Assembly: GCA_951406725.2 (NCBI GenBank)
Contig: OX597815.1
Span: forward strand, 168,888,001 to 168,952,000
DNA from: Octopus vulgaris
Lineage: Eukaryota
Direction of reading: 5' to 3'
Length of the DNA stretch: 64,000 nucleotides
The translations under genes were made by a program, and so were the position numbers. The notes beneath the pieces are model-generated. The model was not told the origin of the DNA, searched no databases, and saw only the letters and a program-made list of their open reading frames with translations. Below are positions 14,701 to 22,000 of the stretch, piece after piece. Each line of letters opens with the position of its first letter. Position 1 is the stretch's first letter.

Positions 14701-17700
14701 GTCAATTACTCTAAAACAAACAAAAGAAAAACACTGAATAGGTTGTAAATTAACAATGAAAACAGACATAATGGCATTGTAAAGGGTTTCTCTTTTGTCT
14801 TTGCTTTTGTTTTCTTTTGTATATGACTTTATCCCAAACAAGGCTTGATGTCACTGTAGTGTAAGGGGCTGCAAAGTTAGAAAAAAAAAAGCACCTTTCG
14901 AGTGTTGGGCTTCATGAAGGCAAAGTGACTGAGTTCCTTTCGAGCGTTGGGCTTCAGTGAGCCAAAGTGGCTGAGTTCCTTGTGAGTGTTGGGCCTCATG
15001 GAGGCAATGACTGAGACCTTTGACATTATGTCGTGCTTGAGAAGAAGACCCATCAAGCCATGCAAACTCACAGTTGTGGCAGATACTCGTGTTGTGCCAG
15101 TGGCACATAAAAGCATCCATCACACTCTAAGAGTGGTTGGCATTAGGAAGGGCATCCAGCCATAGAAAACCATGCCAAATCAGACTGGAGTCTGGTGCAG
15201 CCTTCCAGCTTCTCAACCACATGATTCTGGGTTCCACTGCATGGCACCTTAGGCAAGTGTCTTCTACTATAGCCTGGAGCCAACCAAAGCCTTGTCAGTG
15301 GATTTGATAGATGGAAACTGAAAGAAGCCCATATATATATATAAATTAACATAGGGTGCGAAAAATTATAGAAATTTTTTCTACCAGTGGCCTAGCATGT
15401 ATACAAAGTCAATAGACATATTTTTCATATAAAAATTAGTGTACGTTTAAAACACAAAAGAGGTGAGCCATAACAGGTCGCCTTACATACTAGAAGGAAC
15501 AGTCAAAAAGTCCAAACCAGAGTTAAGAGCAATTTCGAAGGGAATGAAAAATAAAAACATTTACCATGTTTTACAACCGGACCTTAGGTTTCAAACTTTA
15601 ATTAGCAAATAAACTAATTTGCAGGGCGAAGTTCTCATCAGTGGATACGCCAAACATTAACATATAAATTAGAGACAAAATAACACACCTCATCCTTTTA
15701 TATTATAATTTTTCAAATCCACCATTTGGACTTTTTGACTGTTCCTTCTAGTATGTAAGGCAACCTGTTATGGCTCACCAATTTTGTGTTTTGTGTGTGT
15801 GTACTCTTAGTGTATGGGTTTGTCTCCCCACCAACACGTGACAACAGGTGTTGGTGTGTTTGCATCTCAGTAACTTAGCAGTTTGGCAAATGAGACCAAT
15901 AGAATAAGTACTAGCCTTTACAAAAAAATAATAAGTACATTCCACTAAAATTCTTCAAAGCAGTGCCCCAGCATGACTGCAGTCTAATGAGTGAAACAAG
16001 TAAATGACACACACACACACACATGTAACCTTTCATAAATATTCAGTATATTTTTTTGTAGACAATATTTAAAGAACAAGATAATGATACAAACGCAATA
16101 ACAAAAGAACAACTTACTGGTGCAGTTCGCTAGCCTTCATCACAAAGGTACAAGAAGCCATAACTGCTTCATGTAAACTCTTACTAGTCAAACCTACAAC
16201 ACCAAATCTGTCGTACCACATTGACATACCATATAGATCTCTGAGATGATTCATTATTGATACTCCAACACTAAAATCAGGAGAAAATAAATACGTTTGT
16301 CAGCTAATTTATGAAAAGAAACAATATCACAATGGAGCTTAACATATAACTATGGTAAGCAGTTTATATACTAATCTATCTTTTCTTGAGAAATATCATG
16401 CAGGAAACTATTTTCTGTTACGTCAAATTATATCAAGTTTGTTGAAGCAATGTGATTTGTAAATATTTAAAATCATTACTAGAATAACCATGAAATTTAA
16501 TTACGGAGATGTACTTGCGAGTGACTTGATCAGAGATCGTGTGCTGGAACAAAAACAATTGCAGTGTGGAAGGTGTTTATAAGCCATTTAAGAAACACAC
16601 AAAAACCGTTAGATTCACTTCAACATTTAAATTTAATTTGTCAAAATATTTTCGTCGCTTTCAGACCGCGACCTGTTCACTGACAAAACTTTGTGTGTTT
16701 CTTAAATGGCTTATAAACACCTTCCATGAAATTTAATTTCACAGTAAAAGGATTAAGTTCAGAAAAATGTAAACCTAATGAAGAGAAGTTTTTGGTATTA
16801 TTTGCAATGTTACAACTTTAAACTGTTAAGTAACTATTCTATAAAGTATAAGCTACATAGACAATCATGGATAAGAAGCAATCTAATACACATTTAGAAT
16901 ATAAGAAATGATAACAATATGCGGATTATCATCATTTACTGTCTGTTTTCCATGCTGGCATGGGCTGGAAGTTCAACAAGAGCCAGTAAGCAAGAGGACT
17001 GCATGAAGCCCCAATGTCTGTTTTGGCATGATTTCTATGGCTTGATACCCTTCCTAGTGCCAACCACTTTACAGTGTGTAATGTTTTGTTTTTTATTTGG
17101 GACTGGCACTTGTGAGGTGACCAAGTAACTCACAAGATAAGACCTACAATTGAGAGTGGTGTAGTATTGAGCGGTGGGTATGCCAGATGAAGGGAGGCTA
17201 AAGTATGATAAAGGAACATCTTCAAGTGTCTTGCTTTAGCTAATGTAGTTGGAAAAGAGAGAAAATTATGAAGATATGCCAAGGCATACCCTCAAGAGAC
17301 AGGAAAGTGAATATAAGGAAAGTGATAGAGTGGATTGGACAGGGTGAATGGGTAAGTAAATTTGCAAGAGCATGAAAGGAGAAGAAAAAAATAAAAGATG
17401 TACTGCTTAATAAAATGAAAACAGATAAAAACAAGCAACAGTAAATATATCAGAATTAATAATCCAAAAAGAACTTACTTTTGAAGACGGACTACCAGTT
17501 TTTGTATACTTAGATAAGATGACTCAATAGAAAGACCAAGCTTTTTGAGACCCTGGAAAAGCATCAATATGTCAAAAATATAATATATAAAGGATCAATT
17601 AATGATAAAATATCTTTATAAAATAAGTCTGAGTTTCAAATAATCATCTATCCCAGTAGTTCTCAACCAGGGTTCATATAAGATTTTGTCATTAAAATTT

Positions 17701-19008: not shown

Positions 19009-22000
19009 TGTGTGTGTGTGTGTGTATGTAACATCTGTACATACTTGTGGGGGGAGGTTTGCATGCACGTGCATGTGTGTATGTGCATTTGTGTGCTTGC
19101 ATGTGTGTTTATGTTCATGTCATCTAATCTTGGCATTGTGTGATAGATGTAAATGAGTGTACCATCATACAAGCAGTGTCATTTCCAATCTTCTATGAAA
19201 ACATCCAGTCATGGGGAAATATTACTTTGATTGAAAACAACTGAGGGTTGGTTACAAGAAGGGTAACTGACTGTAGAAAACCTGTTTCAATTATTTCTGT
19301 CTGACCTACACAAGCATGGAAAAGTTGGCATTAAATGATAATGATGACAACAATAATGACTATGATGATGAAATTGATGGAAAATATTTCTATTTTGATA
19401 TTTTGTCAATAGATTTATCATTGTAAAAGATGCATTCATTTACCTTTTCTGTCAGTTCATGTAGAAGAAATAGACGAAGTTCAGTGCTGCAACATAGAAT
19501 GATTATTTCGTTGATCAAAAACACTTGAGGAACAGAAAGGAGTCTAAAGACACCATCAGAGTAAATAGGACATCAACAAAATGCAGTTTAGTAAATGTAA
19601 TTTACCTTGCTCTGCCCATGAGCAACATTTCAAGAAGATCTGTAGACACAGAGACAGCAGGTCGGGAACTGCCACATTGCTGTAAGGTAAACATTTCAAA
19701 TGTTAAGATGCTAAAACTACAAGAGATAATATAGAAATATATCACTAACACTGTGTAACAAAATTTTAATTTCTTATTTTATCTTTGGTCAGTAAGGGTT
19801 ATTTACTATTTGCTTCTATCTAGAAATAAAAGGAAATTACTATTTTCCCCTTTAACCCTTTTGATACCAACCCGGCTGAAACCGGCTCTGTAGTACAAAT
19901 GTCTCATTTTCATAAGTTTTGAATTAAAATCTTCCACCAGACCTTGGTCACAATTTATGTTCCTAACACTAGCTTAATGATGACTAAGTTATTTTACTAA
20001 ATTCTTTGTTATATTTAAAATAATTGAAAGAAATACAGAGCATCTCAAAATAAATACAGTAACAAAAGGGTTAAACTTTGCTTTTGTGATCTGAACATCA
20101 AAGTTTTTTTTGAAACTGACCTATTTTCCGTTACATTTCATACAGATTCAGCACTGAGTTGCTGAGGCAGAAATATTGTTTAGGTGGCGAGCTGGCAGAA
20201 ACGTCAGCATGCCGGGCGAAATGCTTAGCGGTATTTCATCTGCCGTTACGTTCTGAGTTCAAATTTCACCGAGGTCGACTTTACCTTTCATCCTTTCGGG
20301 ATCGATAAATTAAGTACCAGTTACGCACTGGGGTTGATGTAATCGACTTAATCGCTTTGTCTGTCCTTGTTTGTCCCCTTGTGGGTAATAAAGAAATAAG
20401 AAATATTGTTATAGCAAATATTCTGCTCAATACCATAGATTTGCTTGTCAGTTGCTTGACTTGAACCACTTGAGCATATCTCTTAGTGGCTGATGATATG
20501 TGCATCTCTGATCATGAGCAGGAGTAGTGAGGGAGCATTATAGCCATGTGTTGAGAGGGATTCTTTAGGGTTTGAATAAACATCACAACAAAAGCAAAGT
20601 TTGAAGGAAATATTAGCCATTTTTCATACGTCTCAGGAAAAAGCAAATAGGAAATAATGGTTGCAACTCAAGGACAAAAATCACGTTACACAGTGTAATA
20701 TAACAACTGGAGCAACTATCAACAAAGAATATAGAAATGACTTATATATAAAGAGGAAATTAAATCACTGGAAGATATTGGATTTTTGTTCAATCTTCAT
20801 TGTTCTTCTACAACTCAGTAAATGCTTATGTATTCAATATTAATTTAGTAGCTTTAAAAGAGAGATCTGAAGATAACTAAGATTACACCAGTTCCTAACC
20901 TTTTTCTCTTCAGCAAACTTTAGCAACTTGTCATCCATTTCCATAAGAATATCTTCCCAGGCTTCTGTCATCTGCTGAATTGTGGAGTTCAAGTACTGGA
21001 AAAGTTACCAAACAGCATTGATAAAAGATAGTGTTTCATTCATTCAGAATAATCAAAAACATTTAAGATTTTTTACACTTGTTTCTGAAAGGAAGATCAT
21101 CATTATTTAACATTGCTTTGGAATCATGTGGTTTCAGGTTCAGTTCTACTATATAGTACTTAGGGCAAGTGGCCAACCAAAATGTAGTGAGTGAATCTGG
21201 GAGACAAAAACTGAACAGAAGTCCATCATATATATATATATCAAGTTTGCATCAGCATCACTTTACTGGCACGTGAAAAAACATTCAAGCACAGTCGTTG
21301 CCATATAACAGCACTCACTACACTCTCGGAGTGGTTGACGTTAGGAAGGGCATCCAGCTGTAGAAACTCTGCCAGATCAGATTGGAGCCTGGTGCAGCTA
21401 TCTGGTTCGCCAATTATCAGTCAAATCGTCCAACCCATGCTAGCATGGAAAGCGGATGTTAAACAATGATGATGATGATGATGATGCTTCTCGTTGTGGC
21501 ATGAGTTGGAAGGTTTGAGAGGATCCAATGAGTTGAAAGATCTTGTCTTACTCCAGGGGGAAGAGTATCTTTTTTTCATCACAAATGTAAATAAACCCAA
21601 TCTGTTTCTTAAACGAGGGACATATTGATGACGCACAGAATGCTTTCACCTCAATGGACGGTCAGCGATTGGCAGTTTTGACAGGATTTCTACAGCTGGA
21701 TGCCTTTCTGAACACCAACCACTTCACAGAGGGGCCCAGTTGTGTGCATAAATATTATACTTCTCGAACCTACTTGTCTTTACAGCATATCCTAAATGCC
21801 AACAAATGTCAGCGTCTTATAAATGGTGACAACTTGCTTGGAAACAGGTGGGAGGTTGGCAACAGGAAGAGTATCTACCCATAGAAAATCTGCATGAACA
21901 AATCTGACCTAAGCCATGTAAACATGGAAAAGTAGAGATTAAAATGATGACAAAACAATAATGACATTCCTTCATTATATATTGCTATCATTTAAGTGAC

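What the first reader, a model, noticed from the sequence alone, without database searches (positions are those of the whole stretch)
16488..16738. Young ~220-bp retro-insert carrying a hammerhead ribozyme with a swapped G3-C8 core
Seen: a perfect 15-bp TSD (CCATGAAATTTAATT) brackets a non-coding insert. On the minus strand, which is the ANAPC4 sense strand, it reads TTTGTCA-GTGAACA-G-GTCGC(loop)GCGAC-GAA-AATATT-T-TGACAAA. This gives a 7-bp helix I, a 5-bp helix II, a palindromic helix III (AATATT) and a UUU cleavage triplet. The core is GUGAACA rather than CUGANGA. Established: positions 3 and 8 form a tertiary Watson-Crick pair, so G3-C8 is a compensatory swap. Minimal type I hammerheads with a palindromic helix III occur in Penelope-like elements and retrozymes and cleave as dimers. 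Inference: a recently mobile non-autonomous ribozyme element that searches for CTGANGA would miss. A 37-bp inverted duplication (16567-603, 16690-726) resembles Penelope 5' inversions.
Basis: partly seen in the sequence, partly recalled or inferred. Interest (0 to 1): 0.78.

Follow-up and report, generated by a model that had tools for sequence, protein, structure and literature searches.

The report
Swapped-core hammerhead in octopus Penelope retrotransposon
This 221-base insert in a gene's intron is the broken-off end of a jumping gene found in thousands of copies, and it carries a hammerhead-type RNA motif with two paired core letters swapped, which likely still cuts itself weakly but was apparently left uncut in most RNAs that were copied into the genome.

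Summary
In detail: target duplication, 37-bp inversion, hammerhead layout with G3-C8 core, inside an ANAPC4 intron. The insert is not a non-autonomous retrozyme. It is a truncated, 5'-inverted pseudo-LTR (pLTR) copy of an autonomous Penelope-like element (PLE) with RT plus C-terminal GIY-YIG, in a genome that is likely an octopus.

G3-C8 is the family consensus: 5,645 of 6,144 motif matches, and none with C3-G8. In related PLE families a descriptor blind to positions 3 and 8 found 7 motifs, all Watson-Crick there (G-C 1, C-G 4, U-A 2). The nearest sister family has C3-G8, so the swap is derived and compensatory.

Copies pile up at a start site 60 nt before the cut site, usually with an extra non-genomic G (18 of 22), likely a copied cap. 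98 of 119 copies span the cut site, so templates were mostly uncut.

Cleavage is untested. Engineered G3-C8 is known to rescue activity. I found no natural case in print, but Lünse 2017 was unavailable. This scan noted G3-C8 before in phages and protist PLEs. Verdict: new variant of a known kind.

The parts
16488..16502 (.). Left target-site duplication (likely 12-bp core 16491-16502; its AATT end also matches the element's 3' end)
16503..16689 (-). Main arm: sense pLTR of the PLE, from just 5' of helix I to the fixed distal 3' end
16637..16687 (-). Minimal type I hammerhead motif: helix I 16687-16681 with 16643-16637; G3 16680, C8 16675, A9 16674, bulged G 16673; helix II 16672-16668 with 16658-16654; GAA 16653-16651; palindrome AAUAUU 16650-16645; U17 16644 (predicted cut 3' of it)
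16503..16587 (-). Start of the PLE ORF (ATG at 16587, ~30 codons, 5-nt deletion in this copy)
16503..16556 (-). PLE 'tail' between the inner (~16557) and outer (16503) 3' ends, inferred to be two reverse-transcription start sites
   Evidence: 60 of 79 inverted arms end at the inner site; model from PMC11167929
16690..16726 (+). Inverted 37-bp arm (copy of 16567-16603), ending 11 nt short of the usual inner site at a CCA microhomology with the target
16724..16738 (.). Right target-site duplication (core 16727-16738)
16117..16299 (-). Open frame holding the ANAPC4 exon downstream of the host intron
   Evidence: Pfam PF12896 E 3e-4
20843..21004 (-). Open frame holding an ANAPC4 exon upstream of the insert
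   Evidence: Pfam PF12896 E 1e-5

Best explanation
The insert is a truncated, 5'-inverted copy of the terminal repeat (pLTR) of a Penelope-like retrotransposon that encodes its own reverse transcriptase and GIY-YIG endonuclease, and the repeat carries a minimal hammerhead motif with a natural G3-C8 core pair that likely cuts only weakly, as a dimer or with protein help. SHOWN: family, anatomy, link to the ORF, G3-C8 as consensus, Watson-Crick covariation at 3:8 across related families. INFERRED: a capped transcript starts at an A 60 nt before the cut site and reads leader, hammerhead, AUG (56 nt after the cut site). The element protein nicks AT-rich or (TA)n DNA on both strands about 12 bp apart and primes cDNA at two sites inside the first ~30 codons. 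Short cDNAs run to the cap and join by microhomology, giving solo pLTRs with an inverted arm, as here. Most templates were uncut, so cleavage is likely not the step that makes the template. When it happens it would remove the capped 60-nt leader and so limit or switch translation or RNA lifetime. The single intronic copy would be largely inert in ANAPC4 pre-mRNA because helix III needs a second copy.
For: PLE identity: upstream extension into a 530-aa RT+GIY-YIG frame; up to 1,025-aa open frame; in-frame read-through from the pLTR in tandem copy L143; older loop type also ORF-linked in L153; two 3' ends and inversions in 79 of 119 copies; (TA)n-type flanks in 64 of 141. Swap: 5,645 of 6,144 matches are G3+C8, controls 0, 0 are C3+G8; kept in subfamilies whose loop II differs. 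Covariation: 7 of 7 descriptor hits Watson-Crick at 3:8 (1 of 105 column permutations, my arithmetic); sister family C3-G8 groups with ours at 97/99 support. Activity plausible: engineered C3G/G8C rescues a PLE hammerhead partly (PMC11167929) and was the one rescuing double mutant of that core region in a full pairwise scan (PMC9901934). Uncut capped template: 40 of 119 5' ends at -61..-57; 98 of 119 begin 5' of the cut site; 18 of 22 ends at A-60 carry G where the genome has C (binomial p 4e-8 at G=0.25); PMC11167929 also found unprocessed RNA to be the main substrate.
Against: No cleavage data. The minimum-energy fold pairs G3 with U17, extending helix I, which could trap an inactive form like the C3-G17 pair discussed in PMC3884650. 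Minimal PLE hammerheads cut poorly in vitro (PMC4209133); UUU being a slow triplet is recalled, not from a call. The very active sister family (3,770 matches) and one other family carry A9C, so the core is not held strictly in this lineage. Within the family, core positions decay about as fast as the neighbouring UTR (3.5% vs 4.6%), as expected of dead copies, so copy counts show the masters' sequence, not selection. The descriptor was written after I had seen and demands the helices, so helix covariation is inflated; only 3:8 is a fair test, on 7 related rows. Several of the 18 G's could come from the partner arm at the junction. A small excess of 5' ends at the cut site (5 of 119 at 0..+2, 1.3 expected, p 0.011 uncorrected) could mean some cut templates, or only helix-I microhomology.
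Confidence: 0.62

Rival explanations
1. Same PLE pLTR, but the motif no longer cuts at a meaningful rate; the fold, including the 3:8 contact, is kept for another job such as binding the element protein, RNA dimerisation or translation control.
For: A9C in two related families, one of them very active; templates mostly uncut; predicted G3-U17 mispair; hammerhead mutants do not affect insertion in vitro for Poseidon; Naiads thrive without canonical hammerheads.
Against: U4, G5, A6, G12, A13, A14 are invariant in the 8 aligned rows (these were demanded by the descriptor), and 3:8 stays Watson-Crick through at least three kinds of pair. That pair belongs to the active conformation.
Confidence: 0.28
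2. Cleavage and re-ligation make a circular or processed RNA that is the true transposition intermediate, so intact sites in copies reflect re-ligation.
For: Proposed for PLEs in PMC4209133; slight excess of 5' ends at the cut site; partial tandems place two motifs on one strand 4.3 kb apart (L143).
Against: Copies stop at one upstream site with an extra G, as a linear capped RNA would give; only 4 of 119 copies have no arm reaching upstream of the cut-site zone (-3..+4); no circularly permuted junctions were noted in the 119 junctions printed.
Confidence: 0.06
3. One reading: a separate non-autonomous retrozyme or SINE-like element mobilised in trans.
For: Most copies are about 200 nt; one locus joins a different head to the same last ~116 nt (L079), so parasites of this 3' end exist; short copies could have short masters.
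Against: The whole unit is collinear with the pLTR and ORF start of the autonomous element; no head-to-tail monomer arrays were seen in the loci read; retrozymes are defined by such arrays and canonical type I motifs.
Confidence: 0.04

Closest known systems
Minimal type I hammerheads in pLTRs of metazoan PLEs (Cervera & de la Pena 2014, PMC4209133)
   Same: Position in the pLTR, U-rich 5' flank, unpaired base between 9 and 10.1, G10.1-C11.1, palindrome in place of helix III, AU-rich 3' flank; a natural 3:8 covariant (U3-A8) is described there.
   Different: G3-C8 (two transversions) instead of C3-G8 or U3-A8; bulged base is G where their consensus has H; helix I is longer (7 bp).
Poseidon PAc of Anolis (Frangieh et al. 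2024, PMC11167929)
   Same: pLTR overlapping the ORF start, two internal 3' ends giving a tail, ATT target preference, unprocessed RNA as the main template; engineered C3G/G8C partly rescues its ribozyme.
   Different: Here the swap is natural; the motif lies wholly upstream of the AUG (cut site 56 nt before it) and not across it; the tail is ~60 nt; this ORF has a CX3CxxC linker, a feature PMC8557442 gives for Neptune and Nematis, not Penelope/Poseidon.
C-terminal-EN PLE clades Neptune / Nematis / Hydra (Craig et al. 2021, PMC8557442)
   Same: Single ORF, RT then CX2-5CxxC linker then GIY-YIG with two inner cysteines; (TA)n targeting; tandem and inverted copies.
   Different: Only ~20% identical to the Neptune-like family of the same genome; 133 aa between RT motifs A and B' against 63, an IFD-like insertion that the paper gives for Naiad/Chlamys and some Coprina, not for canonical clades. 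Clade not assigned.
Non-LTR retrozymes (Cervera & de la Pena 2020, PMC7229834; Li et al. 2026 preprint)
   Same: Short, hammerhead-bearing, PLE-related, high copy number.
   Different: Not tandem monomers, not a canonical type I motif, and collinear with an autonomous PLE end.

Membership tests
Penelope-like element (EN+, C-terminal) | Single ORF with RT and C-terminal GIY-YIG endonuclease | tested here: met
   YVDD motif and GIY-YIG (Pfam 23.1 bits, cut-off 22.6) in one frame in linked copies; RVT_1 itself did not score
Penelope-like element (EN+, C-terminal) | pLTR overlapping the ORF start, in partial tandems | tested here: met
   L143
Penelope-like element (EN+, C-terminal) | Inverted 5' arm and optional 3' tail | tested here: met
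   79 of 119 inverted; 60 of 79 end at the inner site
Named PLE clade (Neptune, Nematis, Hydra, Poseidon) | RT phylogeny with reference members; absence of IFD | tested here: inconclusive
   No reference proteins in hand; distant from the Neptune-like family, long A-B' spacing; its motifs not found in the Craig supplement text, which is cut in places
Minimal type I hammerhead | Helix I, helix II with G10.1-C11.1, GAAA box, palindromic helix III, NUH site | tested here: met
Minimal type I hammerhead | Literal CUGANGA box | tested here: not met
   GUGAACA in 5,645 of 6,144 matches; CUGAAGA version 0
Minimal type I hammerhead | Watson-Crick pair between positions 3 and 8 | tested here: met
   7 of 7 across related families; 8 of 8 rows
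Minimal type I hammerhead | Site-specific self-cleavage 3' of N17 | not testable with these tools
   Only indirect: weak, confounded excess of 5' ends at the site
Non-LTR retrozyme | Head-to-tail tandem monomers, no coding capacity, independent of an ORF | tested here: not met
   Unit is the pLTR and ORF start of an autonomous element; no arrays in the loci read
Non-LTR retrozyme | Circular RNA monomers | not testable with these tools
   Only contigs were served

The most novel reading that the evidence does not exclude
A so far unclassified animal PLE lineage (C-terminal endonuclease plus an IFD-like RT insertion) runs a natural mutagenesis of the hammerhead core: C3-G8, U3-A8, G3-C8 and A9C all occur in successful families. 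The octopus G3-C8 motif is a working ribozyme placed 60 nt behind the cap, acting as a decapping or translation switch and not as the maker of the template. The thousands of solo pLTRs record capped, sense, uncut RNA as the substrate, which bears on the open questions of hammerhead function and template strand in PLEs.
Probability: 0.3. Interest if true: 0.72.

Novelty: new variant of a known kind. Interest (0 to 1): 0.5.

Why it matters
The 3:8 pair of the hammerhead was inferred from structure and engineered swaps. In the passages I read, natural covariation is reported only as U3-A8. A G3-C8 swap needs two transversions with no pair-preserving path by single steps from C3-G8, yet it is fixed in a family with over 5,600 exact motif matches in one animal genome. 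Standard descriptors and Rfam miss it, so hammerhead censuses, and statements that some PLEs lack hammerheads, may undercount. The copies also give a genomic readout of the RNA that was reverse-transcribed (start site, likely cap, uncut), which makes the open question of what PLE hammerheads do directly testable in one family with long open frames.

Tried and rejected
Rfam: no hammerhead match at gathering or E-value thresholds; the miRNA hits come from the 37-bp inversion. The abundant 781-aa Neptune-like family is not the partner; it has its own U3-A8 motif. L123 looked like pLTR-ORF-pLTR but is a local duplication without ORF. Naiad identity rejected: the endonuclease is C-terminal; the family's start motif is not in the Craig supplement text. 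No PDB relative by sequence.

Expression: no RNA holder listed on record; contigs of runs guessed to be RNA cover the pLTR and ORF start but cannot show ends, strand or cutting. Empty site: none among the 15 joints shown, 23 were hidden. My first impression of a strong pile-up of 5' ends at the cut site (5 of 20) shrank to a weak, confounded excess in 119 copies. The control for the extra G at starts at -58 is unusable because G was excluded by construction. A spliced-exon origin of the extra G (a branch-point/CAG-like site ends at -59) was considered; no shared sequence lies upstream of the G, so a cap is preferred.

Rows dropped: 19 of 33 metagenome loci lacked usable sequence after the ORF end and were left out; 119 of the 150 copies listed were analysed (L050, with another head, was left out; the rest were not fetched or belonged to the first, biased set). 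Literature searches for a natural G3-C8 found none; Lunse 2017, Przybilski & Hammann 2007 and Nelson & Uhlenbeck 2008 were not held.

Full report
Observation. The 15-bp direct repeat (16488-16502, 16724-16738) and the 37-bp inverted arms (16567-16603, 16690-16726) are exact. On the minus strand the motif reads helix I (7 bp), GUGAACA, one bulged G, helix II (5 bp), GAA, palindrome AAUAUU, U17 at 16644, helix I'. Helices I and II are the predicted fold alone (z -2.37) and inside the whole insert. Two ANAPC4 exon matches flank it in order on the minus strand. Rfam has no hammerhead hit. The window holds no second copy of the family.

Family. The genome is 2.8 Gb; the insert drew 2,905 candidates and its 31-codon frame 15,374. 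A database protein labelled Octopus vulgaris is 99% identical to a sister family in this genome, so the host is likely an octopus. All 30 best copies share one 3' end; many carry an inverted arm that ends about 60 nt further in. A rarer upstream motif (494 matches) led to longer copies with a TACA-rich 3' UTR of about 1.1 kb and, before it, an RT plus GIY-YIG frame. Copies with open frames up to 1,025 aa exist. In L143 the pLTR continues in frame into the ORF, so the ATG at 16587 is the element's start codon; the N-terminus resembles that of the 1,309-aa sister ORF, which is 54% identical over 814 aa. The insert is therefore a solo pLTR of an autonomous PLE. This matches the anatomy in PMC3846280 (passages) and PMC11167929 (parts 1-2 of 4).

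The swap. G3+C8 is present in 5,645 of 6,144 matches with positions 3 and 8 free. The first 100 show 94 G-C and 6 single changes; the C3+G8 form has 0 matches. In 76 copies holding the whole motif, G3 is 72 of 75 and C8 70 of 75; loop II varies most (12%), helix I least (2%), core 3.5%, UTR 4.6%. Contigs of other runs show no core variant at 10% or more; one helix-I variant keeps a G-U pair. These counts show the masters' sequence, not selection on copies.

Selection evidence comes from other families. A profile of 39 proteins fetched 33 metagenome loci. A descriptor free at positions 3, 7, 8 and 9, run on up to 1.5 kb behind the ORF in 16 regions (ours, sister, 14 loci), gave one hit in each of 7 regions against 1 hit per 683 kb of shuffles. 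All 7 are Watson-Crick at 3:8: G-C 1, C-G 4, U-A 2. I wrote the descriptor, and it demands the helices, so the 12 of 13 pairs with two-sided changes are partly built in; 3:8 is the fair test. The RT tree joins ours with the C3-G8 sister (97/99) and puts the two U3-A8 families on either side of a 100/100 branch, so G3-C8 is derived and the pair likely changed at least three times. Against strict catalytic constraint: the sister (3,770 matches, 92 of the first 100 C3-G8-C9) and L158 have A9C.

What RNA was copied. I mapped 119 copies chosen only by their 3' coding part. Relative to the first base after U17: 40 start at -61..-57, 98 start 5' of the cut site, 76 hold the whole motif. Of 22 ends at A-60 that do not continue into genomic sequence, 18 are preceded by G where the genome has C, the expected trace of a copied cap (recalled from L1 work; some G's may come from the partner arm). 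Five starts fall at 0..+2 against 1.3 expected (p 0.011 uncorrected; helix-I microhomology could cause it), and only 4 of 119 copies have no arm reaching upstream of the -3..+4 zone. So templates were mostly capped, sense and uncut. TSDs centre on 12 bp (22 of 54; 64 of 141 copies sit in microsatellite flanks).

Mechanism. Shown: identity, anatomy, consensus swap, covariation, start-site pile-up. Inferred: two staggered nicks each prime cDNA at one of two sites in the first codons; the cDNAs join by microhomology (here CACAAA at the arm junction, CCA and AATT at the target). The motif would cut only as a dimer through the palindrome or with protein help, as for other minimal PLE motifs (PMC4209133 parts 1-2 of 4; PMC11167929). 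A cut would remove the capped leader 56 nt before the AUG, so a role in limiting or switching expression is more likely than template making. The lone intronic copy is likely inert. A possible brake is the predicted G3-U17 pair (compare PMC3884650 passages).

Age. The copy differs from the majority by 5 substitutions and a 5-nt deletion over 195 nt and has the older loop II; the copies with the longest open frames have another loop. It is recent enough to keep a perfect TSD and inversion but is not of the youngest subfamily.

Literature. Natural 3:8 covariation is described as U3-A8 in PMC3088659 (section 8 and passages) and PMC4209133; its supplement consensus is CUGANGAH (file 2 passages; file 1 not searched). 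Engineered G3-C8 rescue is in PMC11167929, PMC9901934 (passages) and PMC8495972 (one passage). PMC8557442: passages, sections 11-12 and supplement searches. Passages only: PMC6765202, PMC6155905, PMC7229834; part 1 of 5 of the 2026 preprint. Searches for natural G3-C8 found none, but Lunse 2017, the likeliest source, was not held, and unseen supplements may hold such a variant. Earlier notes of this scan report G3-C8 in phages and, with one extra base, in protist PLEs (unchecked); none matched this sequence.

Verdict. A real hammerhead homologue with a natural compensatory core swap in the pLTR of a successful animal PLE: a new variant of a known kind, activity untested. Interest 0.5.

Noticed in passing
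L141:2671-5670 (-), L144:2513-6439 (-): This PLE lineage has a C-terminal GIY-YIG yet 133 aa between RT motifs A and B' (63 in the Neptune-like family), an IFD-like insertion; 150 database homologues include proteins labelled from echinoderms, corals and gastropods. Clade unassigned.
   Followed up: partly
L145 (-) near 1941; 3,770 genome matches: Sister PLE family with intact 1,309-aa ORFs (long N-rich insert) carries a hammerhead motif with C3-G8 but A9C; L158 has U3-A8 with A9C.
   Followed up: partly
L057, L062 and other GIY-YIG loci: A very abundant Neptune-like PLE (many 781-aa open frames) has a U3-A8 minimal hammerhead in its 3' region, so one genome holds C3-G8, U3-A8 and G3-C8 cores.
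   Followed up: partly
L159:4973-5016: Related family with U15.1-A16.1 in place of A-U, still inside a perfect palindrome.
   Followed up: no
L079:1184-1299; L050: A different 5' head is joined to the same last ~105-116 nt of the pLTR; possibly a SINE-like parasite of this element's priming region.
   Followed up: no
L124:6640-6665: Just upstream of the inferred start site lies a branch-point, pyrimidine tract and CAG-like signal, reminiscent of the pLTR intron of Drosophila Penelope that ends at the hammerhead; splicing not tested.
   Followed up: no
window 15500-15741: Another small element with 17-bp perfect inverted ends 208 nt apart, possibly a MITE.
   Followed up: no
window 16925-17050: Pieces of other high-copy repeats next to the insert (very high contig depth).
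   Followed up: no
window 21515 (+): Weak second hit of the relaxed hammerhead descriptor (U3/A8 box, 3-bp helix II, G9); likely chance.
   Followed up: no
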